A stretch of DNA of 64,000 nucleotides from Escherichia coli (lineage in GTDB: Bacteria; Pseudomonadota; Gammaproteobacteria; Enterobacterales; Enterobacteriaceae): the NCBI RefSeq assembly GCF_003790525.1, contig NZ_CP033636.1; one strand, given 5' to 3'. Of this stretch, positions 23,007 to 53,275 are shown one piece after another (positions within the stretch are counted from its first letter, which is position 1; each line of letters starts with the position of its first letter). A model generated the notes under the pieces. It was not told the DNA's origin, searched no databases, and worked only from the letters and a program-made list of their open reading frames with translations. A program made the translations under genes and the position numbers.

Positions 23007-24068
23007 TCAAACGCCTGGAACGTAGCGAACACAACAGTCATTGTAACGCCACAACATATAGACATAATTATCGTTGCCTATTTTTTTGCGCCCACCTTTA
23101 AGGGTTGACCAGTCGTGTACCGAATCACCAAGACGATGACAGCAATCCGGTCCCTTCGCCTCAGGAGTAGGGAAAAGCATTGAAAGCCGATACTGGGAAC
23201 GTGGTGTAAAGTATTCCCACGTTTTCTCACACATTGCGTCTGCTCCCATCGTTCGCATCAGCATGCCTTGGCGATGTAGTTTTGTCAGAAGACGCTGGGT
23301 AATCAGTGAACTCGTCCTTACAGCGTCATCATTTGCGTAAATGTGGCCGGTTAATGGGTAAAGGTTGCCATCGCATCCGGCACAAAAGTATGCAGCGAGA
23401 TTATCCTTTCCTGCTGTTACTGCTACACAGTCAGCAGCGCACACCATTGAGGCAATTGGGTTTGCAAAAACTACTGCCTCGGGATTCAGGACGAGTGTAA
23501 GCAGATCACTTTCCCACATAGGGTCCACTTCGCTTATATAGGTCAGGCTGGCATCTATATAGGGTTCAGCAGTGCACTCGCCAATAATCAGTAATTTGAG
23601 CATTGTCATGATTGGGAACTCCCAAAGATGAACATCGTAAAATCCGGCTTCAGTTGCTGTCATTGGCTGATTAGTGTTGCTTTTACCAATATCAAACTGC
23701 GATTTTTGAAGCATCGTGCCTTCAAGAAAGGGGCTGCACCAGGGGCTCTTTACAACTTCTACAATCTTCACCGGCTGAAAGAAGCTCAATTGCCAACCTA
23801 TTTCCGGTACGCCGTTCTGATCTGTGCAGTAGCAACCCGGACGTGAAGGTGCAGCGCCTTCTGGAGCAGCCCCTATGCCCATTATCCTCATGGGAAAAAT
23901 GCAGCTCCAACAGATATTCTTAATCAAGCCCTGCCACACTCCAGCTGACTGACACATAGCCCCAGGGACTCCAGCATCTGCTGCCATAGCCATACCAGGT
24001 ATAGAAAGCGAAAGCATAACTGCTACAATGAACTCTAAAAGTAACTTTTTGAATTTTTTCACCATCAT
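23007..24068 (-). CDS. traU: TraU conjugal transfer protein
   Basis: ORF track gives 23007-24167; product contains ICWSCIFP, LNPEAVVFANPIA and KLHRQGM blocks that I recall as conserved in F-plasmid TraU. A signal peptide begins at the internal Met-Met (MMVKKFKKLLLEF...), so the start is more likely 24068 than 24167. Confidence 0.8.
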   Translation of the reverse strand: MMVKKFKKLLLEFIVAVMLSLSIPGMAMAADAGVPGAMCQSAGVWQGLIKNICWSCIFPMRIMGIGAAPEGAAPSRPGCYCTDQNGVPEIGWQLSFFQPVKIVEVVKSPWCSPFLEGTMLQKSQFDIGKSNTNQPMTATEAGFYDVHLWEFPIMTMLKLLIIGECTAEPYIDASLTYISEVDPMWESDLLTLVLNPEAVVFANPIASMVCAADCVAVTAGKDNLAAYFCAGCDGNLYPLTGHIYANDDAVRTSSLITQRLLTKLHRQGMLMRTMGADAMCEKTWEYFTPRSQYRLSMLFPTPEAKGPDCCHRLGDSVHDWSTLKGGRKKIGNDNYVYMLWRYNDCCVRYVPGV

Positions 24069-24206
24069 GCTCACTTGGATGTAATAAATGTTGCAACACT
24101 TTCGATATAGTCGACGGCTTTGGTAAAATAACTTCTCATCTGGTCCGGATAATTTAGCGTCAGCCATGTTGCAAAGAGAGCGCCTATAATAAATCCGAGT
24201 TTCATA

Positions 24207-25730
24207 TTATTTTTCCTCTGAAAGATTTGGGGCTCCGATTCCACGGACTTCTGCCTCGCTAAACAGGGTGATCCGGAATTTATCTTGGTCAGTAGTTATA
24301 AGCGCAGGTGTATTTTTAATCTGAAAGCGTGAGATAATCTGTTCGTTTACTTTAAACACCTTACCGTTAAATTTTTCACGTAAATCATTTAGGTGATCCC
24401 ATCCATTATCTTTTTGGATACGGGTAAACATTGGCATTACTTTTCCACTACCCAGACGTTGTCGATACTGCTGCTCAGCCCATACCAGCTGGCCCGGATT
24501 GAGTGGATCGAAAATTATCATCGTCAGGTTTTGAGGAAATCTCGAAAGTGGATTAATCAACTCCCCGGCGGAAGCTATTACACGGCCCTGCTTATCTTTT
24601 ACGTCCTGAGTGACCCTCACTGTAGGGTCAATTAAAAATTCTTTGTGTTCCTGGGCAGGAGGGAGATCGACCATCCATTGATTTTTCCAGGTGTCCGCAA
24701 CGGCCCTTTTTTTTGCACCTTCCCAGTCATATTTTTGTGCGCGTTCTTCCAGTTCTTTAATGATGCTCTTTTCTTCAACGGGATAAATCGTACCAGCAAC
24801 AGGAAAAATGTCCTGATCGGGTTTTTTAGCAAGTTCTCGCTGAAAAAACTCAACGTTGAAGGACCCTACCATTTTTGCAAAACGAGCTTGCTCCCGAGAA
24901 ATAATTGTCGGTACTTGAGTTACTTGATACTGACTGAAGCTATCAGGATCAATTGTAATCAAAGGAGATTCAAATTTTCCTTTGACAATCATTTGGTTTA
25001 TTGCTGCCTGTGTCTCTGGTAGCCGAGTAGTTCCTTTCTTTAGACCATTGAAAACTACACGAGCTTTATGCTCTGAGGCCGTACGTAAAAGGTCTTCCAG
25101 TACATAATCCGGTAAGCTAAATGAAGCAAAGATCGTTATACCATTTTCAGTTGATAGTGCTTCTTCACGTGTGCTATCCATTTTTCTTTCGAAGTCAGCA
25201 GCTGTGATGCCCGAGGAACCAAACAATTTTTCGATATTTTTAGATTGTCCTCGCATGACTTCCGGCTTATTTTCCACAGCTTTCAGAGCCGCTTCATTAA
25301 GGCTGGCGTTTTCCTGAATTTCATCACGTCTTCTAATTATATCGTTGACAGCATCAGAGTTATTACTTTGGGCCCTTATAGCCTGGGTATGGTCTATAAC
25401 TGCTTGAACACTATCCGCATTCATACCGGGCACGTAACCACGGTTTGTTTGCCTGCTCAGGTCCTGGTTTTTTTTGAGTGCTTCAGATTGCGCAATGTAC
25501 TTCTGCACATCTGGTGAATTTAGCGTAGCATCAAGGCTAAGAGCCCCATCTGGCTGCTGTGCACCTTTAGCCTGAGCGCCAAGCCCTTTTGCTTGCTGAG
25601 CGATTAGGTCAGCATCATGTTGATACTCAGTGCTTGCATTTGTATTACTTAAAACTGCACATAACGCAAGTCCAGGAAGTATTGGTAAATATTTTTTATT
25701 TACATTAAAAGATCGCATATGTTTTCCCAA
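24207..25730 (-). CDS. traW: TrbC/TraW-like pilus assembly protein (fused two-domain form)
   Basis: ORF track 507 aa; signal peptide; size consistent with a TrbC-TraW fusion seen in non-F MPF-F systems; position between peptidase and traU. Confidence 0.55.
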   Translation of the reverse strand: MGKHMRSFNVNKKYLPILPGLALCAVLSNTNASTEYQHDADLIAQQAKGLGAQAKGAQQPDGALSLDATLNSPDVQKYIAQSEALKKNQDLSRQTNRGYVPGMNADSVQAVIDHTQAIRAQSNNSDAVNDIIRRRDEIQENASLNEAALKAVENKPEVMRGQSKNIEKLFGSSGITAADFERKMDSTREEALSTENGITIFASFSLPDYVLEDLLRTASEHKARVVFNGLKKGTTRLPETQAAINQMIVKGKFESPLITIDPDSFSQYQVTQVPTIISREQARFAKMVGSFNVEFFQRELAKKPDQDIFPVAGTIYPVEEKSIIKELEERAQKYDWEGAKKRAVADTWKNQWMVDLPPAQEHKEFLIDPTVRVTQDVKDKQGRVIASAGELINPLSRFPQNLTMIIFDPLNPGQLVWAEQQYRQRLGSGKVMPMFTRIQKDNGWDHLNDLREKFNGKVFKVNEQIISRFQIKNTPALITTDQDKFRITLFSEAEVRGIGAPNLSEEK

Positions 25731-26217
25731 TTACTGAATTCAGCTTTACTGTTCCCCAAAAACGGGAATCCCATGAGTGATCGGTTTGCCCAATTAGGAA
25801 AACTTCGCCTTCAGGAATTATCAATTCTTTTTCAATCAAAATGGACGGAATACTGTATTTCTTTGAAATACGACGTGCATTAGCTTCAAAAAATTTGTCC
25901 CCGTTATAAACCCCATCCATTGTTACTTTGAGTTTGTCACCGCCCACACCGGCAACAATTTTTATGACTCGTTCATTTTCTGGGATAAAACGAACCGATT
26001 TCGGCATGTTGAAAGCTATGAGTTCACCAGTTTTAATAGTTTTATCCGAATGATCAATCATATAAAAATCAGCAGGCAGGCACCCATTCAATAAACCGTA
26101 TCCAAATGTATAACGGGTGAAAAAGACACACATAACGAGAATCAGCAATAAAATATTAATGGGGACATACCAATCCAGTATAAGCAGCCCTCTCTTTTTA
26201 GGTATGTAGTCGCTCAT
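25705..26217 (-). CDS. TraF-type conjugative signal peptidase (S26 family-like)
   Basis: ORF track 170 aa; N-terminal TM helix; VIKIVAGVGGD and DHSWDSRFWG segments resemble conserved boxes D and E of signal peptidase I family. Confidence 0.6.
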   Translation of the reverse strand: MSDYIPKKRGLLILDWYVPINILLLILVMCVFFTRYTFGYGLLNGCLPADFYMIDHSDKTIKTGELIAFNMPKSVRFIPENERVIKIVAGVGGDKLKVTMDGVYNGDKFFEANARRISKKYSIPSILIEKELIIPEGEVFLIGQTDHSWDSRFWGTVKLNSVIGKTYAIF

Positions 26218-26449
26218 ATTTTTCTCACTAGCACTGAAGAATATTTTTACTAAGTAGATACACCTCTATCCAAGTAACTATTATCCATGTTTTTCAACGC
26301 TCGGAAGTCTGCAAACTAACCTAATATTAACCTATAAGGATGTTAATTTCTCAGCATGTAGACGCAGCCTTGTTAGCGGCCATGAAAGATACCTTTGTAG
26401 CAAAGTTACTTTCCGGTATTAATTTTTCAAAGGTCCAATTGTTGGGCAT

Positions 26450-26482
26450 AAAAAAGCCGGGACAAAATGTCCCGGCTTTATA
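26450..26482 (-). terminator. intrinsic terminator after giant exoprotein gene
   Basis: AGCCGGGACA-AAA-TGTCCCGGCT hairpin flanked by A5 and T-rich run, 15 nt downstream of the 26495 stop. Confidence 0.6.
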
Positions 26483-26494
26483 TTTAAAAATTTA

Positions 26495-29400
26495 TTACTC
26501 ACTGCTTGGTATTGATACAGTGTTTTCAGACTTACTTGCCTCTTCAGCCGGTCCGAAAACTGTCACGTGCTGCGTTGCAAAGTCTCCACTATCATCATAA
26601 GCAATTACTTTTATGTCCTGCTTACCACGGTTAAGGTTTTTAGAAAGTGTAGCCGTACTACCGAAAACGTTCCTTAATTCGCCGTTGATGAACCATTCAT
26701 ATCTAACCATTTTTCCATCAGTATCATCACATTTATTGGTAAAGCTCCAGCTTAGGTTGGTTTCCGTGTAGCTCAATGTACAATTAGGCACTGCGTTTTT
26801 AACGACATCAAACTCAACAGATGCTGAACCTCTCTGTCCAAGTTTACTAACAACATCAATTGTGATCTCGTATTTCTTTTCTTTTAAACCCGAAATCAGT
26901 TGAGCCCAATAATTTTTGCCGCTGGGTATTACCTCACCGTTCACCTTGTATGTGACCGTATCTATCGAGTCCGCCGAATGAGATAGCTTGATGTTTGACC
27001 TTAAGGTTACATCGAGTGGAGCTCTCATATATTTGTTAGAGAACTTGGGTGTCATCTCAACGTTCATTGGCGTTTGTTCATCGACAACAAAGGTATTTTC
27101 GATACGCTGTTCATTGTTGCGGTTATCTTTGAAAACAACCATCAATGTATATTTGCCAGGATTTTCAATTGTAAATTCTTTGGTGTCACCTTCATCTTTA
27201 GTGATTACCAGATTCTCTTTGTCGTAAATCCATTCTCGGGAATAAGTAACACCAGGATAGTCTCCATCCTTAATACCGCTCAACGCAACGCGTAGGGTGG
27301 TCGGTGCCATGTCGTATTTAAGTTTGGAGCTTATTTTCATTTCGGGGAATTTATAAACCCACGATTTGACAGAAACTCTACGGGTAGAAACCGTATTCAC
27401 CTTATTGTCCGCTAACCATGCACTGTATTCAAAAGCAGCATATCCCTGTTTATCCAACATTTGCTCAGTAAGGGTAACAGACAGTGTAGAGCCTTTAAAT
27501 GTCTGGCCATCCGGTGTTTTCCATTCTTCAACTACGTTATTACCATTCTGGTACTTACTGTTAGGGTTCGTGAACTTACCTTCCAAAGTAACTTTTTGAC
27601 CAACCTCTACCTTAGAAACCCCCGTTACCGAGACAGAAAGGCGCTTGGGTTTTGCGGCTGCCAACCGAGCAGACGTTTCCTTCCATGAAGACTCCTCTGC
27701 CAGTTCATCGGAATCAAGGTAACGCATCCGGGCATAAATCGTAGACGGTAGGGTATCAGCTGAAGCCACAGTGTAAGTTGTATCTCCCTGCACCCAGTTG
27801 ACTTTATCCTCTGACCAGAGAACCTCAGCGGTGCCTGCTGGTATAGGCTCATCGTTATCAAGCAGGGTTACAGGTACATCTGAGCCCTGAAGAATGTCTG
27901 TCACATCTATACTGAGCTTAGGCTGCTTGTAGGTAACTACCGTTAAGGCATCTGTGTAGGAAACCTTAGATGTGAATTTATTGGTCATTTTTGCCCTATA
28001 AAGCCACTTTCCTACTTCTGTCTTTTTGATACTTACACTTCTCTTTCCGGTCATGTCGGAAAGCATATTCCAGGTTTGACCATTATCAGAGGACTGCTGC
28101 CATTCGGTGGGGGCAAGTGCGTCAGAGTTAGCAGTACTGGCAGATTTGAAGCTTACCAGAGTACTAAGTGGGATCCTTCCGATAATAAGGCTTTTCGACA
28201 GGTTACCCTCCAGTTCCTCACCTTTATAGATTCGAATGCCTACAGCACTGGTCTCACGTTTCATTTCAAAATCAGAGAATGGCGATCTGACCTTAGCCAC
28301 ACCAACCAGACGCATATTACCCAGATCCATATTTTCAATTTTAATCTTGGTTTCGACAATGCCCGCATCATTGACCGGCAATGCTTCAGTCAGCGCAGTT
28401 CTTTCGTATGTAGTTTTATAACGGCCTGTTTCTGGATCTTTGCCGTATACACTTTTTTGCGAGTATATCGTGACGTCCCATTCTCCCATTGTTTTACGGT
28501 CAAATGCACTTTTACGTGTGGAGTTGTTATAACGCCCCACTGTTACCTTTAAGGGCACTTCAAGAGATGTGGCTGTTTTTCTGTCATCCACTTCCATCGA
28601 TGCTCGAATATTGAAATCAGGCACCGTATATACGTTGAGTGTGTCTGTAGTTCTTAATTCTGGATCCTTTGAGTATTCTACAGCTATGTCAAAGACGTTC
28701 TTTGTCCACAATGGTGCAGCAGCAACCTTAACCCTTTGTACAAAGGTCGTTGCATCGTTGTTTGAGGAACGATTTTTAAATGACGTTTTGACAGCCTCAG
28801 AGCCGTTTTGAGAGACGATCATCGTAACGTCAGCTGGTACCACCTTCGCTAATATTCGAGCGGCCTCCCCCCCGGTCGTATAAGCCAGAGCAGTGTTCGG
28901 ATTGATGCCAGCTATGACTTTATTCTTTTTGTAAGAGATGATCGGGTTGTATGGTAATTGTGTGGTCAGAGTACGGCGATTCCTTGCGGATACCGCTTTA
29001 GAGCCCTTCCCGTTAATCATATAGACTTGATAGTCGAGCAGATTCTCACCTGTTTTATTAAAGAATCCAGTTAGACCCGGGGTACGTCCTTTAAAATAGA
29101 ACTCCAACCCATCAGGGACATTGTTCCACTGAGGGTAGCATGCTGTAACATCTGATTTTTCCCCATACCAGGCGAGGTAAGCATTCGCATTTTCCTCTGT
29201 GGTAAACAGAGTGCATTTATCACCAGCTGTTTGACTAAGCAGGTCCGTATACTGACGTACACGCGAGTAAAGAGTTACGTTTTTTTCCAGATTCTTGAGA
29301 GTGAATCCAGTAGGTTGATAAGTGAAAACGGTACTGAAATTAACGTTTTTTCCATAAAGGTTTTCAGCCACCACAGTAATCTCGTGATCCGAATTAACTG

Positions 29401-38550: not shown

Positions 38551-39800
38551 GCGTTAACTCCTTGCTTAGCTGAAAAACTTTTTATTTCATTTATAAATTG
38601 TTGATATACCTGTAATACAGATTCTTCTGCGACATCAAGTTGCTTTGCGGAACAAAGTTCCTCTGATTTTTTGATATCAAGCACTGTACGCCCTTTGGAA
38701 GCAGCTGCCTTAAATGCTTCAGAATTTTTTATGTTAGCGGACATCAAAAGGTCCTGAACAGTTCTGATTAATTTATCCAAAACTATTCTTTCATATGGAC
38801 TTTTGTCATCAACATTGACAGCAAGAACTTTGAACCATTTTAAATTATCGCCCTTACTTGGTGATTGTTTAAACCTTTCACTTATTGTAAGCATGAAGTC
38901 TGTAGTAGAGGCGTAATCATATTCACGTGGTGACACTGCGACAAGAATCCCATCGGCCGCTTCGTCAGCAGCCCAGATCAAAGGTGAATCTTCAGGTGGA
39001 GTGTCTATAATAATCAAATCATAGTTCTGCTTCAGTACCGGTAAGATAACTTCCTTGAAACGTAGTAACAAAGACGTTCGTTCTTCTCTAGAACATTGCC
39101 AGTATTTATCTTTAAAACGAGCATCTGTCGGAAATGCCGTTATCACGTCCAAGTTTGGCAGATGCGTTGAAAAAGGCATATTAGTGATGATTTCTTCTTC
39201 AGAGAATCCTGAATCTAAATATTTTTTATACTCAGAATTTTCTTCATAAATTCCAAGGATTGCATCAATTGCTGTAAGGAAGACATCATCTTCTGAGACA
39301 CTTTGAATCATGCTGCTTCCAATCGAACCTTGTGGGTCCCATTCGATCATTAATACACGTGCATTCAGTTGTAGATCTAAAGCAGCTGCTACTGCTAAAG
39401 CTACAGATGTAGTGCTTTTCCCTGTACCGCCTTTATGATTCTGAGTAACAATAGCTCTGCTAAAGTAATGATCGCGGTACTTGGGATAACCCAGGGCATC
39501 CATTATTTTTTGAACATCCCAGCGGGTGTAAAGATGATTTTTGTTTTGATAAATAGGTGCACCAACAACTTCTTTTTCTTCTAAGTCCGAAAGTATTTTA
39601 TTGAACGTTACTCGTGACTTCCCAAAAAAATCAGAGAGATTTTTTTTATTTAAACAGTGGTTGTAGATCAGTCTATCAACACCATCAACACTATCATCAG
39701 AAACAGATACTCTTGATGAAGCCATCAGAGATTCCTTAAGAGAAATCTGCTCGCTTTTCATGCGCTGACCAACGAGGGCGATCTTTTCAAGTAAATTCAT
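38547..39800 (-). CDS. parA: ParA/SopA-family partition ATPase (type Ia, long N-terminal extension)
   Basis: ORF track 417 aa; deviant Walker A KGGTGKSTT, ~110-aa N-terminal extension typical of SopA/P1 ParA-type proteins. Confidence 0.85.
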   Translation of the reverse strand: MNLLEKIALVGQRMKSEQISLKESLMASSRVSVSDDSVDGVDRLIYNHCLNKKNLSDFFGKSRVTFNKILSDLEEKEVVGAPIYQNKNHLYTRWDVQKIMDALGYPKYRDHYFSRAIVTQNHKGGTGKSTTSVALAVAAALDLQLNARVLMIEWDPQGSIGSSMIQSVSEDDVFLTAIDAILGIYEENSEYKKYLDSGFSEEEIITNMPFSTHLPNLDVITAFPTDARFKDKYWQCSREERTSLLLRFKEVILPVLKQNYDLIIIDTPPEDSPLIWAADEAADGILVAVSPREYDYASTTDFMLTISERFKQSPSKGDNLKWFKVLAVNVDDKSPYERIVLDKLIRTVQDLLMSANIKNSEAFKAAASKGRTVLDIKKSEELCSAKQLDVAEESVLQVYQQFINEIKSFSAKQGVNA

Positions 39801-39868: not shown

Positions 39869-40199
39869 ATTTCATTGTTATACGTACAATTCTATCCTTT
39901 GTTTCAATCCTAAGCTAATGTTTGTTTACTTTTTTATGATTTTTTGTGAGCTTAACTTGCAGATGAGAGCTCAGACTCTCTAGTCCATACCTAATGCTCA
40001 TTCTTTTTAAACCACGATTCTTGTCGACTTCTCTACGCTTTGACGTTATGAGCTCCATTAATGAATCTTCACGCCTACCCTATTTCTTGCTTAGACCCTA
40101 AAATCTATCTCACCGGTGTGCTGATTTACGTTTCCTAACTGTGAATCGTTGTCGTCAGTCCAGTCTAAAGATATGAGGTGTTAATCTCTTGAGTAGGCC

Positions 40200-43100
40200 C
40201 ACTACGAATTATGGGAGCAGAGTTAGCAACCTAGCCCAGAACTGAAACCCAACTTCAGGAGGCAACCCCAGTGTGGCGATTAAGGGGGTTAAATCTGCCA
40301 GCGGCTGACAGTGTCCTAGCTGCTGCTCAGTCACACCACGCCCTGATTAAATCTCCTGCCCGGTATTGTAAGGACCGAAAAAAGCCCGTGCATTTGTGTC
40401 GGCAGACCGGCATGAAGGAATATGACGTTAATCTGTATCAGCAGGCACTTTTCGCATGATGGGAGCAAGTGATAGCAACCCCGCCCAGAACGGAAGGCCA
40501 GCATCAGGACAAAACCCAAGTTTGGCGATTAAGGGGGTTAAATTTGCAAGCGGATGACAGTGCCCCAGCTGCTGCTCAGTCACACCACGCCCTGAGTAAA
40601 TCTCTCGCCAGGTCTTGTTATGACCGAAAATAGCCCAAGCACTGGTGTCGGCAGACCGGCATACAGGAATATGACGTTAATCTGTATCAGCAGATACATT
40701 TCGCATTATGGGAGCAAGAGATAGCAACCCAGCCCAGAACTGAAGGCCAGCATGAGGACAGAACACCAGTTTGGCGATTAAGGGAGTTAAATATGCAAGC
40801 TGCTGATAGTGCCCCAGCTCCTGCTCAGTAACACCACGCCCTGATAAAATCTCCTGCCCGGTAATGTAATGACCGAAAAAAGGCCGTGCACTGGTGTCGG
40901 CAGACCGGCACGCAGGAAAATGACGTTAATCTGTATTAACAGACACATTTCGCATTAGGGGAGCAAGTGATAGCCACCCAGCCCAGAACTGAAGGCCAGC
41001 ATCAGGACAGTACCCCAGTTTGGCGATTAAGGGGGTTAAATCCGCCAGTGGCTGTAAGTGCCCGAGCGGTGTATAAGAAATATTTCCCGAAGGACAATCT
41101 TTCGCTCGTACGATGAATAAAGTGTTCAACCCGGGAGCGGGGATCACTTAACCTGCTTAGCCTAAATCTTACGTCATTCTCTAAACGGAGTTTAAGCTTA
41201 ATGGTCCTTAGAAAGTTAAAAGGACTACCCATAATGACGTCTTGAGATGGCGAATAAAGGGTTTTAATCTGCCAGCGGCTGACAGTGCCCCAGCTTCTGC
41301 TCAGTCACACCACGCCTGATTAAATCTCCCGCCAGGTCTTATTATGACCGAAAATAGTCCCCGTGCACTAGAGTCGTAAGACCGGCATACAGGAATGAAG
41401 CTTAAATCTTTATCAGGTTGCAAGGTTCGCATCATGGGAGCAAGGGCCTTGAACTGTAGGTTAACATCAGAAAATCCCAGATTGGCGATTAAGGGGGTTA
41501 AATCTGACAGCGACTGAAAGTGCCTTCAGATGCTGCTCAGGTATATTACAACCTGAAAAAATCAAGCGTCTGTTCATGCGAATATCGAAAAAAGCTATGC
41601 ACCAGTTTCGGCAGACCGGCATGGAGTAATGAGACGTTAATCTGTATCAGCTGGCGCATTTCGTATCATGGGAGCAAGTGTTAGCAACCCTGCCCAGGAC
41701 GGAAGGACACTATCAGGACTGATCCCAGTTTGGAGATTAAGGGGGTTAAATCTGCCAGTGGCTGACAGAGCCTTCTGATGCTGCTCAGACATACTATGCA
41801 ACGATAAAATCACCCGTCCGTCCTTGTGATTATCGGAAAAAGCCATGCACCGGAGTCGGCAGATCGGTATGCAGTAATGTGACTTTAATCTGTATCAGCA
41901 GGCGCAATGGGAGCAAGTGTTAGCAACCGAGCCCAGGACGGAAGGACACTATCAGGACTGAACCCCAGTGTGGCGATTAAGGGGGTTAAATCTGCAAGCG
42001 GATAACAGTGCCCCAGCTGCTGCTCAGTCACACCACGCCCTGATTAAATCTCTCGCCAGGTCTTGTTAGGACCGAAAATAGCCCGAGCACTGGTGTCGGC
42101 AGACCGGCATACAGGAATACGACGTTAATTTGTATCAGCAGGTACATTTCGCATTATGGGAGCAAGTGATAGCAACCCAGCTCAGAACTGAAGGCCTGCA
42201 TGAGGACAGAACACCAGTTTGGCGATTAAGGGGGTTAAATCTGACAGCGGCTGACAGTGCCTTCAGATGCTGCTCAGGCATACTACTCTCCCTGATATAA
42301 TCTCCCATATGTTCTTGAGATCGTCGGAAATCGCCCATGCACCGGTGTCGGCAGACCGGTATGCAGTAATGTGATTTTAATCTGTATCAGCAGGCACATT
42401 TCGTATCATGGGAGTAAGTGTTAGCAAACCGAACCCCGCCCAGCACGGAAGGTCAATATCAGACCAGAATCCCAGTTTGGCGATTAAGGGGGTTAAATCT
42501 GCAAGCTGCTGACAGTGCCCCAGCTTCTGCTCAGTCACACCACGCCCTGATAAAATCTCCTGCCCGGTAATGTGATGACCGAAAAAAGCCCGTGCACTGG
42601 TGTTGGCAGACCGGCACGCAGGAATATGACGTTAATCTGTATCAGCAGTTACATTTCGCATTATGGGAGGAAGTGATAGCCACCCAGCCCAGAACTGAAG
42701 GCCAGCATCAGGACAGTACCCCAGTTTGGCGATTAAGGGGGTTAAATCCGGCAGCGGCAGTAAGTGCCCGTGCTGTGTTAAAGGAATATTTCCCTAAGGA
42801 CAATCTTCCGATCGGCCTTTTGTATAAAGTGGTCACCCCGGGAGCGGGGATCACTTTACCTGCTTAGCCTAAATCTTACGTCAATCACTATCCGGAATTT
42901 TAGCTTAATGGTCCTGAGCAAGTTAAAAGGGGTACCCCTAATGACGTCCCCAGATGGCGATAAAGGAGTTAATTCCGCCTTCGGCTTACAGTGCCGCAGC
43001 TGCTGCTAAGGAACACCACGCCCTGATTAAATCTCCCGCCTGGCCTTGTGATGACCAAAAATTGTCCGTGCACTGGCGTCGTAAGACCGGCATACAGGAA

Positions 43101-43636: not shown

Positions 43637-46318
43637 CTACGCGGCCAAACCCGCTGCTACTTCTTGAGCATAGAGAATTTCTATTGCCTCGCCATAGCTA
43701 CAATTCTCGCGGCTTTGAATTTCCCATAATTTACTCCTGTCAGCACTATCCGTAGTAAAACAAAGCTCCATTTTCCGGTCTACGTATAACCGACAGATCT
43801 CTTGGAAGTTTTCGAACCTGACTAACATCTCTGAAAACACCTTTTTGACTGTACGAATATTTTTCATTCGTTCATATTCTGCATCTGAAGTAGAAAAATA
43901 TTTATTAGCCTTCATTGCTTCAATGCTTTCTTTTTCTTGTTTCATGATTATCTTCCAAGGCGAGTTAGCAGTCAGGGCCCGGCCAACAGAAGAAGTAAAA
44001 TAATCTTCAAACGACTGTGTGATACAGATGCCAGCGCAGTTTGTTTTCCTGAACCTACGCCATGCCGCTTCGAGGAAGGAAGAGAAGAATTGGTTTGATT
44101 GATTTCCGGCACCTGATGAATTATCAGGACGAATGTACTCCCAAGCTTCATCTAGGATGAACAAGCGACGACGCCCATCTTTTTTGATGAACATTGCATG
44201 CTGAGCAGCCTGAATGATAGACATTAAAACAACTGTCTGAAGGTGGGGGGTGCCTTTTAGCTCCTCCAGTTCCAAAACAATAAATCTGCTGTCGAAGTTG
44301 ATTGGAGGCAACGTATCGGTAAACCGGTGCCCATAAATTCCACCTTCGCACCATGCTCCGAGTTGCTCCCCAATATCCTTTATACGTTTGTCTTCATGCT
44401 TCTTGCAACGCAGAGCAAAGCCGGTTATTGAACCGGTCCGACCTGATTTTCTGGATTCCTGGTACTCTTCTGCAATAAGCTGAAGCATCACTGATTGTTG
44501 ATAATCATCGATAAGGCCTTTCTCTGAAGCCATAATTTTTAGCTGATTCAGAACCATTATGGTCTGAGCAACTTTGTCTTTTTCTGCATCGTTTGAAGTT
44601 GATTCACCGGTAAATTCAGGTGCTTCGTTAAATACATCGTCGTTAACAGTGATGTCAGTTAGGAAGGCAAAGGGATTTAGGGTGAAGTCAGGGGTTTTAC
44701 CGAAATCAATAAATTGACTGTTTGTATATTGTTCCGCAATCCCCTGGTAAGAACGCCCCACGTCCACTACAAAAACTTGAGCACCATCAGGATCATCATC
44801 TGGGTATTCGTTTTCTAAAAAATGCTTAAATGTTGAGCGATAATGAACGAGGTTATTAGATCGCGGTCCAGCTCCAAGATAGTTATTGATTAGATATGCT
44901 GTCCAGAATGACTTGCCTGCACCTGACGTTGCACCAATAACCATGTTATAGCTTGCAGAAGTCTTGAAAATATCAAGTCCCATGAGTTGACCTTCACGAG
45001 AAACTAAACTCAGTACTGGTCTATCTGTATTACCTTTCCAGGGCCCAAAGATCGGCGTCATATGAGCCGCTCCGGTGTTGCTCACTACTTCGGATCGGTC
45101 AAGGTCGAAAATTGTCTTTGGGTCATTGCACATTGGCAGACATGACATAAATGACGGGAAAACGATAAAGGAATCATCTGCTACTTTGACCCGGCTTTCG
45201 AGGTAAAAGGATTTGAGATCGTTAGCTGCTGTCTGCACAGAATTGGCATTACTACCCATAACAGTGAAAGTAAGATACCCTCTTAAAAGCTTTGCGCCAT
45301 CCTCAAGCTCGCGAGTTACGGCCATGTAGTCATTATCCATATCCCGCAGGCGAGGGCAGAATGTGACAACTGAAGGTATACTTGCCTGTTTATTAGTGAT
45401 TGCTTTGTAGCGGACGTTTTCTTTTGACAACTTGAGCGGATCGGCAAACTGAACAGTCTGAGTGATCATAAATGGGCTGAAAATTGTCTTACGTCCATGC
45501 ATCCAGTTAACTACTAACTCATACATACAACCGAAATTGACGTATTCAGGAAACTTTACAACGGAAAGTTGTTTGAAGTAACGATGCTCAGATTCGTCGT
45601 CACTTTGTGTGACTGATGAGAAATGATTTTCTGTGACTGTATACTTACGGCCGGGAACGTTAACTTGTTCATTAAGCCTTTTCATAGTGTTAACGTCTAT
45701 AAAACCTTCAGCCCACCGAGAGTTCTTTCCGGGGTTTACGACCTTATCTATACAATAGAGCCAGTTTTCTGCATCGACCTTAAACGGATGCAGTCCAATC
45801 GTAATTAACTTACTTACAAGTTCAGAGTAAAGTGAATCGATACGCGAATGTTCCAGCTCGGTAGGAAGGGCAGACTGTAAAGGAATCGATAGCGAGATCC
45901 ATACCTGAAAATCCCTCAACATAAGGTTATCATGATCAGGTTTTAAAGGCTTATGCATACTTCTGTCGTAGTAGTCCAACTGATAACCATTAAGCAGATC
46001 TGCTTTAAGCTTATCGTTCCCAGTCATACGCCCACCTCGCACAGCTGACCAAGCACTAAGCTGTAAAGTCAAGTCTGGCAATGCAGTCAGAGATATTTGA
46101 CAGACAGTATCTGTAGGAAAATCCATTTTGAACATTTCAGCAAGAACATCTTGCTGATTATCAAAAACTCCAGGTGATGGATTACAGATAAACATAAACC
46201 CTAATCTGTTGCCATCAATCAAAAAATAGTGAGTCCCTGCTAATTGATCGTAAACAGGGATAAACCCACCTAATTGATGGCGATTTAAACCGCTATTGTA
46301 ATTATTGATAGCTTCCAT
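43637..46318 (-). CDS. traC: TraC (VirB4-like) conjugative transfer ATPase
   Basis: ORF track 893 aa; Walker A GATSGAGKS, Walker B-like FILDEAW; size and position after traV typical of F-type TraC. Confidence 0.8.
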   Translation of the reverse strand: MEAINNYNSGLNRHQLGGFIPVYDQLAGTHYFLIDGNRLGFMFICNPSPGVFDNQQDVLAEMFKMDFPTDTVCQISLTALPDLTLQLSAWSAVRGGRMTGNDKLKADLLNGYQLDYYDRSMHKPLKPDHDNLMLRDFQVWISLSIPLQSALPTELEHSRIDSLYSELVSKLITIGLHPFKVDAENWLYCIDKVVNPGKNSRWAEGFIDVNTMKRLNEQVNVPGRKYTVTENHFSSVTQSDDESEHRYFKQLSVVKFPEYVNFGCMYELVVNWMHGRKTIFSPFMITQTVQFADPLKLSKENVRYKAITNKQASIPSVVTFCPRLRDMDNDYMAVTRELEDGAKLLRGYLTFTVMGSNANSVQTAANDLKSFYLESRVKVADDSFIVFPSFMSCLPMCNDPKTIFDLDRSEVVSNTGAAHMTPIFGPWKGNTDRPVLSLVSREGQLMGLDIFKTSASYNMVIGATSGAGKSFWTAYLINNYLGAGPRSNNLVHYRSTFKHFLENEYPDDDPDGAQVFVVDVGRSYQGIAEQYTNSQFIDFGKTPDFTLNPFAFLTDITVNDDVFNEAPEFTGESTSNDAEKDKVAQTIMVLNQLKIMASEKGLIDDYQQSVMLQLIAEEYQESRKSGRTGSITGFALRCKKHEDKRIKDIGEQLGAWCEGGIYGHRFTDTLPPINFDSRFIVLELEELKGTPHLQTVVLMSIIQAAQHAMFIKKDGRRRLFILDEAWEYIRPDNSSGAGNQSNQFFSSFLEAAWRRFRKTNCAGICITQSFEDYFTSSVGRALTANSPWKIIMKQEKESIEAMKANKYFSTSDAEYERMKNIRTVKKVFSEMLVRFENFQEICRLYVDRKMELCFTTDSADRSKLWEIQSRENCSYGEAIEILYAQEVAAGLAA

Positions 46319-47286: not shown

Positions 47287-48171
47287 TTAATTTGTCTCAA
47301 ATGGATTTTTTAAGAGAGGTTCAACGCTTTGGTTCAACCAGTAGTCGAAATCTTTTGGAATGCCATTACCAGCCAAACCATCCTGTCTGACAACTGAAGG
47401 TACACCCTGCAATTTATAAATTCCTGCGAGCATCAATGACGCTACCAAAGGTTCCGCCGGACATTCTTCTGCTTCTTTTTGAGAGAGCAATCTTTTTTCA
47501 ATGTCGGATTTGCTTCCCATTAGCCAACGAAGAATATCGAGGTTGTTTATTTTTCCTTTTTCTTTACTACACCAGAGCCTTCTAAGCTCTTCTTTTGGCT
47601 CACCGGGTGAGGGAACTAAAACAATATCTATCCGATACTTGTCCCGATCTGCATAAAATTTCTTAACAAGTTCCATGCAACCGTCACAATCAAGTGTTAA
47701 GAAAATGGCTGCTTGTCTCTTAAGCTTTGAATTTCCCAGATGAATGGACGCTACAGTTTCCAGAGGGAAGGGGGCCTCATCAAGACTAATAAAATAGGAA
47801 TTTCTGATTTCTTCTACAGTCAGAACAGGTTTACGTTTAATTACATCAACAAGGCTTCCCCCAGTAAGGGAGTATCGGCCATCGGTCGTTACTGCCATTA
47901 GCTGCGAACGCTCGTCCTGAAAGAGGTATAGCCCACCAGAAGGAATGTATATGGCATCCTTAGGTTTATATCCTTTCATTTTTGATAACGCACCCGAGAT
48001 CTGACTGGGTGAAACGCCGCCTTCCTTTGCCTTTGCCATTAACGCAGCAGCATCACTATTAGTTAGGACCTGCTCTGAAGCATAAGTGACCGTATTCGCC
48101 ATAATGGCGAAAGCCGCCATTAAAGGGAAAAGTAACTTTTTCACTATTGGGTGCCCTCTACTTCTTTGCAT
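47287..48171 (-). CDS. periplasmic thioredoxin-like protein (DsbC/TrbB-like)
   Basis: ORF track gives 47287-48270; a signal peptide begins at the internal Met (MQRSRGHPIVKKLLFPLMAAFAIMA), so start set to 48171; CxxC motif DCDGCM. Confidence 0.5.
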   Translation of the reverse strand: MQRSRGHPIVKKLLFPLMAAFAIMANTVTYASEQVLTNSDAAALMAKAKEGGVSPSQISGALSKMKGYKPKDAIYIPSGGLYLFQDERSQLMAVTTDGRYSLTGGSLVDVIKRKPVLTVEEIRNSYFISLDEAPFPLETVASIHLGNSKLKRQAAIFLTLDCDGCMELVKKFYADRDKYRIDIVLVPSPGEPKEELRRLWCSKEKGKINNLDILRWLMGSKSDIEKRLLSQKEAEECPAEPLVASLMLAGIYKLQGVPSVVRQDGLAGNGIPKDFDYWLNQSVEPLLKNPFETN

Positions 48172-52894: not shown

Positions 52895-53275
52895 TTACAG
52901 CGGTACGCCAGCATCCATAAAGGTGCTGATAATTTTCTCGCCGTTGGCCATTACCAGCATCATGAATAATGAAACCAGTGCCAGGCCCGGGTTAGGCTTA
53001 AGGACAGAGAAATATACGCTTGAGATCAACATCGCGGCTGCCAGAATTTTGCCCGGAGCTCCAGTCATACTTTCACTCATGTATGACCAAATATCTCCCA
53101 GTGCCCCATCATCTGAACCCGCATATGCCAGACCGCAAAAAAGCACGGTCAGCAGAACAAACAAAATCACTTTTGCGCTTTTTGTTTTAAAAAGTGCAGC
53201 CGTGTTAGATTTCTTTTCACTAAGGCCAATATTTAAAGAAAGTTCCATAATTACTCCGTGTAGATTTGAGTTCAC
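52895..53275 (-). CDS. putative conjugative pilin precursor
   Basis: ORF track 126 aa; leader followed by two hydrophobic helices, probable cleavage after AYA; first gene of the traL-E-K-B-V-C string. Confidence 0.5.
   Translation of the reverse strand: MNSNLHGVIMELSLNIGLSEKKSNTAALFKTKSAKVILFVLLTVLFCGLAYAGSDDGALGDIWSYMSESMTGAPGKILAAAMLISSVYFSVLKPNPGLALVSLFMMLVMANGEKIISTFMDAGVPL

What the first reader, a model, noticed from the sequence alone, without database searches (positions are those of the whole stretch)
25705..26217. TraF-type signal peptidase in an F-type transfer system suggests peptidase-dependent pilin maturation
F-plasmid-type systems process pilin with host LepB. A dedicated S26-like peptidase, together with a TrbC-like pilin-sized gene at 52895-53275, is the arrangement known from RP4, where TraF matures the pilin.
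Basis: partly seen in the sequence, partly recalled or inferred. Interest (0 to 1): 0.35.

Follow-up and report, generated by a model that had tools for sequence, protein, structure and literature searches.

The report
IncHI2 pilin-cyclising peptidase TrhF (TrhP)
The gene is the known IncH-plasmid peptidase TrhF/TrhP, which most likely trims and joins the ends of the TrhA pilin into a ring as already described for sister plasmid R27, so the finding is correct but not new; the one unexpected point is that its catalytic serine is replaced by a conserved cysteine.

Summary
Window 25705-26217 (-) is a 170-aa Peptidase_S26 ORF, and 52895-53275 (-) is the pilin gene. The window is the Tra2 region of an IncHI2 (R478-type) plasmid, 100% identical to many E. 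coli and Salmonella plasmids. NCBI calls the peptidase TrhF; the R27 literature calls it TrhP.

The R27 H-pilus structure (PNAS 2025, PDB 9hvc) shows TrhA loses its last five residues and is cyclised Gly1-Asp69, and names TrhF, an RP4-TraF homologue, as the likely enzyme. The window's TrhA keeps Gly1, Asp69 and the tail (AGVPL). A related peptidase is essential for conjugation in Rts1, and another circularises the pilin in the gonococcal island.

Lys86 and Asp150 match RP4 TraF Lys89 and Asp155, but the position of the nucleophile Ser37 holds Cys46. That column is Cys in 144, Ser in 21 and Leu in 1 of 166 homologues. It is the only cysteine in 95 of the 144 Cys-type proteins.

I infer a thiol variant of the S26 dyad acting as a transpeptidase. 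No paper found mentions this. Overall: already known, low interest, with a moderately interesting mechanistic lead.

The parts
25705..26217 (-). trhF (called trhP in the R27 literature): 170-aa membrane-anchored S26-family peptidase, the proposed TrhA pilin C-terminal protease/cyclase
   Evidence: ORF; Pfam PF10502 E=9e-21; RefSeq WP_001286759.1 'IncHI-type conjugal transfer protein TrhF' at the identical position in NZ_CP076648; signal-peptidase fold
26113..26169 (-). Codons 17-35: single N-terminal transmembrane helix anchoring the catalytic domain at the periplasmic face
   Evidence: Hydrophobic stretch modelled as helix H17-35 at high pLDDT; coordinates. The topology is inferred by analogy with LepB and RP4 TraF
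26080..26082 (-). Codon TGC = Cys46, at the position of the nucleophile Ser37 of RP4 TraF (motif C-L-P-A-D-F-Y against S-I-P-V-G-L-Y)
   Evidence: hhalign of the TrhF family against the TraF family, probability 97%; MAFFT columns Cys 144 / Ser 21 / Leu 1 of 166; 12-sequence alignment; codon checked
25960..25962 (-). Codon AAA = Lys86, the general-base lysine (equivalent to LepB Lys145 and RP4 TraF Lys89)
   Evidence: Invariant in 166/166 and 126/126 homologues; aligned to LepB IKRAVG and TraF MMKRVLA
25762..25776 (-). Codons 148-152, S-W-D-S-R (box E): Ser148, Asp150 and Arg152, equivalent to LepB Ser278/Asp280/Arg282 and RP4 TraF Asp155
   Evidence: Asp150 in 164/166, Ser148 in 156/166, Arg152 in 162/166; hhalign to LepB, probability 99.5%
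52895..53275 (-). trhA: H-type pilin precursor (126 aa from GTG 53275; RefSeq start ATG 53248, 117 aa)
   Evidence: ORF; residues 53-126 match PDB 9hvc R27 TrhA at E=1.9e-32; weak NCBIfam TraA_gammapb hit; lies upstream of trhL and trhE
53120..53275 (-). TrhA signal peptide (residues 1-52, ending ...LAYA), probably removed by host LepB
   Evidence: The 74-residue chain deposited for R27 (9hvc) aligns from Gly53; A-x-A site seen in the sequence; LepB as the enzyme is inferred from F, RP4 and the gonococcal island
52913..53119 (-). TrhA core Gly53-Asp121 (Gly1-Asp69 of the mature pilin): the predicted 69-residue head-to-tail cyclic pilin
   Evidence: Gly1 and Asp69 conserved against R27, where the Gly1-Asp69 peptide bond was shown by cryo-EM and mass spectrometry. 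[quoted passage not shown]
52898..52912 (-). TrhA C-terminal propeptide A-G-V-P-L (residues 122-126), predicted to be the leaving group of the cyclisation
   Evidence: Aligns to AGIPL of R27 TrhA, whose removal was measured as a 451 Da loss; coordinates
24207..25718 (-). trhW (TrbC-TraW fusion), overlapping the 3' end of trhF by 14 nt: same operon, probably translationally coupled
   Evidence: Pfam TrbC_Ftype and TIGR02743 TraW; RefSeq coordinates; start checked. The peptidase-TraW adjacency is conserved across plasmid families
26495..30799 (-). rsp (R0009 homologue), a 1434-aa Ig-like surface protein gene upstream of trhF in the same transfer operon; context only
   Evidence: ORF; RefSeq 'IncHI-type conjugal transfer protein RSP'. 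In R27, R0009-trhP-trhW are co-transcribed and an additional promoter lies upstream of trhP

Best explanation
The window is the Tra2 region of an IncHI2 plasmid, and the ORF is trhF (called trhP in the R27 literature), a small membrane-anchored S26-family peptidase dedicated to pilin maturation. The proposed pathway has three steps. (1) Pre-TrhA inserts in the inner membrane and host LepB removes the signal peptide after ...AYA52, exposing Gly53; this step is inferred. (2) TrhF, with its active site at the periplasmic membrane surface, attacks the Asp121-Ala122 bond near the TrhA C-terminus, releases AGVPL and forms an acyl-enzyme. (3) The free amine of Gly53 resolves the acyl-enzyme, giving a 69-residue head-to-tail cyclic pilin (predicted monoisotopic mass 7240.6 Da) that is competent for H-pilus assembly. 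The cleavage and the Gly1-Asp69 bond are shown experimentally for the 76%-identical R27 pilin. That TrhF is the enzyme is inferred from homology to RP4 TraF and gonococcal TrbI, from conserved synteny, and from the essentiality of the Rts1 homologue. The likely chemistry is a Cys46/Lys86 dyad, supported by Ser148, Asp150 and Arg152. This would be a natural thiol version of the Ser/Lys signal-peptidase dyad, giving a thioester intermediate well suited to aminolysis.
For: Identity and context: 100% DNA identity to IncHI2A plasmids typed MOBH and MPF_F, with the gene annotated trhF between rsp and trhW. Enzyme family: Pfam S26 E=9e-21 and a signal-peptidase fold. Relation to the RP4/Ti TraF family: hhalign probability 97%, pairing C46 with the TraF serine, K86 with the TraF lysine and D150 with the TraF aspartate. 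Conservation: K86 in 166/166, D150 in 164/166; the nucleophile column is Cys 144, Ser 21, Leu 1. That Cys is the only cysteine in 95 of 144 Cys-type proteins. Ser- and Cys-type sequences interleave, with about 10 switches on a crude NJ tree. Substrate: TrhA residues 53-126 are 56/74 identical to R27 TrhA (9hvc), with Gly1, Asp69 and the A-G-[IV]-P-L tail conserved. Experiments on homologues: R27 TrhA is cyclic Gly1-Asp69 after loss of five residues, cyclisation is needed for pilus formation, and TrhF is proposed as the enzyme. Deleting Rts1 trhF (orf215) drops conjugation below 0.0001 and is complemented. Gonococcal TrbI is 'the enzyme that circularizes' TraA in an F-like system. RP4 TraF cleaves four residues and cyclises TrbC. 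Distribution: 3484 plasmids carry a homologue; in the rows examined it sits next to TraW/TrbC in nearly every case.
Against: No experiment retrieved here shows that TrhF/TrhP itself performs the cleavage or ligation in any IncH plasmid; the PNAS paper only suggests it. The canonical nucleophile Ser is absent. The C46-Ser equivalence rests on alignment to the TraF family at the start of the aligned block. Local profile alignment to LepB begins only at residue 60, and the global version has no confidence in the N-terminal part. The AlphaFold2 model has pLDDT below 50 at residues 42-48 and 145-150, which are the active-site loops, and I could not read its coordinates. From memory, not retrievable here: Jain et al. 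2011 reported that mutating the putative catalytic Ser52 of gonococcal TrbI did not stop circularisation, while Lys93 and Asp155 were essential. So the residue in this column may not be the sole nucleophile in this subfamily. The Rts1 authors likewise list only Lys67 and Asp130 as active residues.
Confidence: 0.78

Rival explanations
1. TrhF is simply a plasmid-borne type-I signal peptidase, a LepB paralogue. On this view it removes N-terminal signal peptides from TrhA or other Tra proteins, and something else processes the C-terminus.
For: It scores above the curated cut-off of TIGR02227 'signal peptidase I' (52.7 against 47). PGAP labels relatives 'lepB: signal peptidase I'. Rts1 does need a second, LepB-like peptidase, Orf185.
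Against: It lacks the box-B S-M-x-P-T motif and the nucleophile Ser, and at 170 aa it is half the size of LepB. Its box-B region aligns with RP4/Ti TraF, whereas the local profile alignment to LepB covers only residues 60-170. TrhA has an ordinary A-x-A site that host LepB can cut. The R27 pilin demonstrably needs a C-terminal cleavage and ligation activity. The homologous TraF and TrbI are C-terminal circularases.
Confidence: 0.07
2. TrhF is a catalytically dead signal-peptidase homologue that acts as a pilin chaperone or assembly factor, like Streptococcus pyogenes SipA. Another enzyme would do the cleavage and cyclisation.
For: The canonical Ser nucleophile is missing. SipA, a non-catalytic signal-peptidase homologue needed for pilus polymerisation, is among the best structural matches, with the lowest rmsd (4.2-4.9 A, TM 0.5-0.6).
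Against: Lys86, Ser148, Asp150 and Arg152 are invariant or nearly so across hundreds of diverged sequences. The Ser position is restricted to Ser or Cys in 165/166 and 125/126 sequences. This is the pattern of a working active site, not a decayed one. From memory, gonococcal TrbI forms a covalent intermediate with TraA.
Confidence: 0.06
3. TrhF only hydrolyses the Asp121-Ala122 bond, and ring closure is done separately by another Tra protein or during pilus assembly.
For: No in vitro reconstitution exists for any IncH system. The R27 paper describes 'cleavage ... followed by cyclization' without naming one enzyme for both steps.
Against: Re-forming a peptide bond after hydrolysis needs energy, which is not available in the periplasm. 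The RP4 and gonococcal precedents couple cleavage to ligation through an acyl-enzyme (Jain 2011 from memory). No ATP-dependent ligase candidate is evident among the conserved neighbours.
Confidence: 0.07

Closest known systems
TrhP/TrhF and TrhA of IncHI1 plasmid R27 (H-pilus; PDB 9hvc; Ishimoto et al. PNAS 2025; He et al. bioRxiv 2025)
   Same: Orthologous system. The peptidase is about 78% identical, with the same rsp-peptidase-trhW order. The pilin core is 76% identical, with Gly1, Asp69 and the five-residue tail conserved. IncHI2/IncHI2A TrhA variants are already catalogued as a TrhA group.
   Different: IncHI2 rather than IncHI1. There are 18 substitutions in the 74-residue pilin, and the tail is AGVPL rather than AGIPL. 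Cyclisation has not been measured for the IncHI2 protein.
TraF peptidase and TrbC pilin of IncP plasmid RP4 (Haase & Lanka 1997; Eisenbrandt et al. 1999, 2000)
   Same: A small membrane-anchored S26 homologue encoded by the transfer region. Lys and Asp are conserved. It removes a short C-terminal peptide (4 aa against 5 aa), in both cases before an Ala, and cyclises the pilin head-to-tail.
   Different: RP4 is a P-type (MPF_T) system, whereas this one is F-type. TraF uses Ser37 where TrhF has Cys46. TrhF lacks the roughly 14-residue Cys-containing insertion before the Lys and scores far below the TraF family cut-offs. RP4 TrbC first loses 27 residues to a host protease, and TrhA has no such extension. 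The two pilins share no detectable Pfam family.
TrbI circularase and TraA pilin of the gonococcal genetic island F-like T4SS (Jain et al. 2011; Pachulec et al. 2014)
   Same: An F-type gene set with an S26 peptidase between traC and traW that circularises the pilin. KEGG/JGI label close relatives of the window's protein (60-72% identical) 'conjugal transfer pilin signal peptidase TrbI'.
   Different: The sequences labelled TrbI that I could examine outside the IncH clade are Ser-type (N-x-T-x-S-L-P-G). The gonococcal sequence itself could not be retrieved. From memory, its putative Ser52 was dispensable, and three rather than five residues are removed.
Rts1 (IncT) Orf215 TrhF
   Same: A Peptidase_S26/TraF-domain protein next to traW that is essential for mating-pair formation. 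It is reported as 33% identical to R27 TrhP, and its authors name only Lys and Asp as active residues.
   Different: It is shorter (150 aa). Rts1 also needs a second, LepB-like peptidase, and I did not look for one in the window.
E. coli LepB (type-I signal peptidase, Ser90/Lys145 dyad)
   Same: Same fold. Boxes D and E are conserved: K86 with K145, S148 with S278, D150 with D280, R152 with R282. From memory, the engineered LepB S90C is active and thiol-reagent sensitive (Tschantz et al. 1993), which shows a Cys can work at this position.
   Different: LepB is 324 aa with an extra beta-domain, cleaves N-terminal signal peptides hydrolytically and uses Ser. TrhF is 170 aa, has Cys, and is proposed to act on a C-terminus as a transpeptidase.

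Membership tests
Peptidase family S26 (Pfam PF10502) | Significant match to the family profile above the gathering threshold | tested here: met
   75 bits against a cut-off of 22.9, E=9e-21, residues 16-169 covering profile positions 7-166 of 168
Peptidase family S26 | Signal-peptidase fold | tested here: met
   The AF2 model (pLDDT 79) hits only SpsB, LepB, EF3073 and SipA at E<=1e-3, TM about 0.5
Peptidase family S26 | General-base Lys (LepB K145, TraF K89) and box E Ser/Asp/Arg | tested here: met
   K86 in 166/166, S148 in 156/166, D150 in 164/166, R152 in 162/166; aligned to LepB and TraF
Peptidase family S26 | Nucleophile Ser (LepB S90, TraF S37) | tested here: not met
   The equivalent position is Cys46 (TGC). 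The column is Cys in 144, Ser in 21 and Leu in 1 of 166 homologues
Conjugative TraF peptidase, RP4/Ti type (NCBIfam TIGR02771, PRK13838, PRK13884) | Score above the curated equivalog or subfamily cut-off | tested here: not met
   36 against 100.25, 25.6 against 186 and 23 against 156 bits. It is related (hhalign 97%) but not a member by threshold
Bacterial signal peptidase I (NCBIfam TIGR02227) | Score above cut-off together with the box-B Ser motif | tested here: inconclusive
   52.7 bits against a cut-off of 47, but the match covers only residues 48-169 and so excludes box B, and the Ser is absent
IncH TrhF/TrhP pilin peptidase | High identity to the R27-type protein and the gene order rsp - peptidase - trhW | tested here: met
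   77.6% identity to IncHI1 TrhF; synteny
IncH TrhF/TrhP pilin peptidase | Required for pilin C-terminal cleavage and cyclisation | not testable with these tools
   Needs genetics and mass spectrometry. It is only proposed for R27, though the Rts1 homologue is essential for mating-pair formation
Cyclic H-type pilin TrhA | Sequence match to the structurally solved R27 TrhA, with Gly1, Asp69 and a five-residue C-terminal tail | tested here: met
   E=1.9e-32 to 9hvc, 56/74 identical, G53, D121 and AGVPL present
Cyclic H-type pilin TrhA | Head-to-tail peptide bond in the assembled pilin | not testable with these tools
   Shown for R27 only. Predicted mass for IncHI2 is 7240.6 Da
   No Pfam family at E<=0.01. 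NCBIfam TraA_gammapb scores 33.7 bits, below its cut-off of 50
F-type (MPF_F) conjugative T4SS | [quoted passage not shown] | tested here: met
   Pfam and NCBIfam hits; RefSeq annotation and MOB-suite typing MPF_F/MOBH of the identical plasmid

The most novel reading that the evidence does not exclude
The pilin peptidases of IncH plasmids, and of IncC and many other MOBH/F-type plasmids examined here, would be a natural, widespread Cys/Lys variant of the S26 Ser/Lys signal-peptidase dyad. Cys46 would form a thioester acyl-enzyme with Asp121 of TrhA, which the pilin's own N-terminal amine resolves, making the enzyme chemically convergent with sortases and asparaginyl-endopeptidase cyclases. This would explain why a catalytic serine could not be found in this branch of the family. 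It would also offer a thiol-directed handle to block pilus biogenesis in thousands of resistance plasmids. No paper found here states it.
Probability: 0.4. Interest if true: 0.55.

Novelty: already known. Interest (0 to 1): 0.25.

Why it matters
IncHI2 plasmids are major carriers of mcr-1, NDM and other resistance genes, and their transfer depends on the H-pilus. The useful addition here is that the presumed cyclase is conserved next to traW in about 3500 sequenced plasmids and has an invariant lone cysteine where RP4 TraF has its catalytic serine. If that cysteine is the nucleophile, it defines a thiol subclass of S26 peptidases acting as protein cyclases. It might also account for the old failure to find a catalytic serine in gonococcal TrbI, though the TrbI-labelled sequences I could examine are Ser-type and the gonococcal sequence itself was not retrieved. 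And it would suggest cysteine-reactive inhibitors of conjugation.

Tried and rejected
- **MAFFT with canonical long signal peptidases:** it placed their S-G-S-M serine opposite Leu42, not Cys46. I rejected this as unreliable because canonical enzymes have a roughly 20-residue hairpin insertion after box B. Local hhalign to LepB starts only at residue 60, and the global alignment has zero confidence upstream.
- **Basis for the Cys46 equivalence:** it therefore rests on the TraF-family profile alignment and on Ser-type close relatives that share the [SC]-L-P-x-x-x-[YF] motif.
- **AlphaFold2 model from a 15-sequence alignment:** the active-site loops (42-48, 145-150) have pLDDT below 50 and coordinates are not exposed, so the Cys46-Lys86 geometry could not be checked.
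- **Gonococcal TrbI sequence:** I tried to retrieve it to see what occupies the column (cluster look-up, profile search). No Neisseria entry surfaced.
- **Papers not held:** Eisenbrandt 2000, Jain 2011 and Dalbey 1997. Statements from them are from memory and marked as such.
- **Literature searches for a catalytic cysteine in TraF/TrhF/TrhP/TrbI:** these found nothing. This is weak evidence of absence, because subscription papers are not indexed.
- **Promoter scan of the 277-bp rsp-trhF gap:** no minus-strand sigma-70 consensus was found, although R27 has an active promoter upstream of trhP.
- **RK2 record BN000925:** not in the collection. I used an IncP plasmid TraF that is 99.4% identical to my recalled RP4 sequence instead.
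Full report
**What is there**

The ORF reported at 25705-26217 exists exactly as described on the minus strand (ATG start, 170 aa). It is a clear Peptidase_S26 member: Pfam PF10502, E=9e-21, 75 bits against a gathering score of 22.9, nearly full-length. An AlphaFold2 model (mean pLDDT 79) matches only type-I signal peptidases and the signal-peptidase homologue SipA in the PDB.

Its residues 53-126 match the 74-residue TrhA chain of the solved R27 H-pilus (PDB 9hvc) at E=1.9e-32, 56/74 identical.

**Where the window comes from**

The region 24000-31000 is 100% identical to hundreds of IncHI2/IncHI2A plasmids of E. coli, Salmonella, Enterobacter and Klebsiella. These are typed MOBH and MPF_F.

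In RefSeq the gene is 'trhF, IncHI-type conjugal transfer protein TrhF'. It lies between rsp (1434-aa Ig-like protein) and a TrbC-TraW fusion (trhW), whose start overlaps the trhF stop by 14 nt.

The rest of the window is colinear with the IncHI2 Tra2 region: trhA, trhL, trhE, trhK, htdO, trhB, htdT, trhV, trhC, the par genes, htdA, rsp, trhF, trhW, trhU, trhN.

There is a naming trap. R27 papers call this peptidase TrhP (R0008) and use TrhF (R0126) for the F-TraF-like pilus assembly protein. NCBI and the 2025 PNAS paper call the peptidase TrhF.

**What it does: evidence from relatives**

- **R27.** TrhA has 74 residues after signal-peptide removal. Cryo-EM at 2.2 A and mass spectrometry showed loss of the last five residues and a Gly1-Asp69 peptide bond (7124.5 Da measured). 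Deleting residues 67-74 abolished pili and efficient transfer. [quoted passage not shown] - **RP4.** TraF removes four C-terminal residues of TrbC and cyclises it.
- **Rts1.** Deleting the homologous trhF (orf215) lowers conjugation below 0.0001 and is complemented.

The window's TrhA keeps everything needed: an A-Y-A|G signal-peptidase site, Gly53 (Gly1), Asp121 (Asp69) and the tail AGVPL (AGIPL in R27).

My mass calculation reproduces the published R27 values (7593.9 and 7124.6 against 7593.8 and 7124.5). It predicts 7695.9 Da for the linear 74-mer and 7240.6 Da for the cyclic 69-mer of IncHI2.

I fetched real TraF sequences: an IncP plasmid 99.4% identical to my recalled RP4 TraF, a second IncP, Neisseria pConj, Agrobacterium and Vibrio. 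I then compared profiles.

The TrhF family aligns to the TraF family with 97% probability. Lys86 pairs with the TraF lysine (Lys89 in the literature numbering) and Asp150 with the TraF aspartate (Asp155). The residue opposite the TraF nucleophile Ser37 is Cys46: C-L-P-A-D-F-Y against S-I-P-V-G-L-Y.

Profile alignment to LepB independently confirms K86/K145, S148/S278, D150/D280 and R152/R282, but it does not reach box B.

I then ran an exhaustive search of 1.8 billion representative proteins (1148 hits at E<=1e-3) and aligned 166 full-length homologues. The results were:

- Lys86 is invariant and Asp150 is present in 164/166.
- The nucleophile column is Cys in 144, Ser in 21 and Leu in 1.
- In 95 of the 144 Cys-type proteins this is the only cysteine, so it cannot be a structural disulfide.
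- Ser-type and Cys-type sequences share the motif [SC]-L-P-x-x-x-[YF] and interleave on a crude tree, with about 10 switches.
- A second profile search, seeded mainly with Ser-type relatives, found a large Ser-type group in which 125/126 sequences again have Ser or Cys in that column.

The Cys type includes IncHI1 (R27-like), Klebsiella IncHI1B/FIB, IncC, a Providencia MOBH plasmid and Burkholderia pTGL1. An Acinetobacter MPF_F plasmid has Ser.

Across PLSDB, 3484 plasmids carry a homologue. In the rows examined it is next to TraW/TrbC in nearly every case.

**How it most likely works**

- **Shown for R27:** C-terminal cleavage and head-to-tail ligation of the pilin.
- **Inferred for this plasmid:**
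  - Host LepB removes the signal peptide.
  - TrhF is anchored by helix 17-35, with its active site at the periplasmic membrane face.
  - It attacks the Asp121-Ala122 bond, releases AGVPL and transfers the acyl group to the Gly53 amine.
- **Further inferred:** Cys46, activated by Lys86, is the acyl-accepting nucleophile, giving a thioester intermediate.

Three things support a nucleophile role: the Ser/Cys-only pattern, the lone-cysteine statistic, and (from memory) the activity of engineered LepB S90C.

Three things count against certainty. The alignment evidence sits at the edge of the aligned block. The model's active-site loops are low-confidence. And from memory, mutating the putative Ser52 of gonococcal TrbI did not stop circularisation. 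The Rts1 authors name only Lys and Asp as active residues.

**Rivals**

- **Generic LepB paralogue.** This is suggested by the TIGR02227 score of 52.7 against 47 and by PGAP 'lepB' labels on relatives. The missing box B, the small size and the need for a C-terminal activity argue against it.
- **Dead SipA-like chaperone.** This is suggested by the missing Ser and the SipA structural hit. Near-invariance of the other catalytic residues argues against it.
- **Hydrolase only, with separate ligation.** This is energetically implausible in the periplasm and runs against the RP4 and gonococcal precedents.

**Comparison and membership**

It is an S26-family member by profile and fold, but it fails the defining Ser. 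It is not a TraF equivalog by NCBIfam thresholds (36 against 100 bits). It is an orthologue of R27 TrhP/TrhF by identity and synteny.

The pilin is a TrhA orthologue. It does not reach Pfam TrbC/VirB2, nor the NCBIfam TraA_gammapb cut-off, so 'TrbC-like' holds only in the functional sense.

**Novelty and verdict**

I remember it being raised for R27 in the early-2000s Tra2 analyses. The gonococcal island work is Jain et al. 2011, cited; the IncH papers are from 2025. I therefore rate the finding 'already known' and of low interest.

The Cys-for-Ser replacement, its breadth and the lone-cysteine pattern are, as far as my searches could see, unreported. They form a testable mechanistic lead. That is the most novel reading the evidence leaves open, and I give it a probability of about 0.4.

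Noticed in passing
window 40180-42769: A 2.6-kb tandem array (period about 249 bp, 10.6 copies, 70% matches) fills most of a 3.8-kb gene-free gap between parA (38547-39800) and trhC (43637-46318). Nothing is listed there in the gene table of the identical RefSeq plasmid. It may be centromere or incompatibility repeats of the IncHI ParA/ParB module.
   Followed up: partly
window 24207-25730 (-): trhW encodes a single roughly 503-507-aa protein that fuses an F-type TrbC domain (residues about 200-282) to a TraW domain (about 311-488). Its start overlaps the trhF stop.
   Followed up: partly
window 26495-30799 (-); L015 16308-21839: A giant Ig-like surface protein gene (rsp, 1434 aa) lies directly upstream of the peptidase. 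IncC plasmids carry an analogous 5.5-kb Ig-like gene right after traA and before dsbC-traC-peptidase.
   Followed up: no
window 47287-48039 (-); L015 21988-22695: A DsbC-like disulfide isomerase (htdT) sits in the same Tra2 block. IncC plasmids and the gonococcal island also place a DsbC gene close to traC and the peptidase gene. I speculate it could keep the peptidase's lone periplasmic cysteine reduced.
   Followed up: no
L010, L012, L013, L014 (relatives on other plasmids): PGAP annotates four of these pilin-peptidase relatives as 'lepB: signal peptidase I', with GO terms for protein secretion. Three are Cys-type; the Acinetobacter one (L013) is Ser-type. This is probably an over-call, driven by the generic TIGR02227 model just passing its cut-off.
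   Followed up: partly
window 25705-26217; literature: Gene-name collision. The peptidase is TrhP (R0008) in R27 papers but TrhF in NCBI annotation and in the 2025 H-pilus paper. R27 'TrhF' (R0126) is a different pilus-assembly protein.
   Followed up: yes
L015 15715-16107 (IncC traA): The IncC TraA pilin also exposes an N-terminal Gly after an A-H-A signal-peptidase site and ends ...SNGLGV. It sits in a system with a Cys-type peptidase, so IncC pilin may be cyclic too.
   Followed up: no
window 53248-53275: The trhA start is ambiguous. The longest ORF begins at GTG 53275 (126 aa), whereas RefSeq uses ATG 53248 (117 aa). The mature pilin is unaffected.
   Followed up: partly
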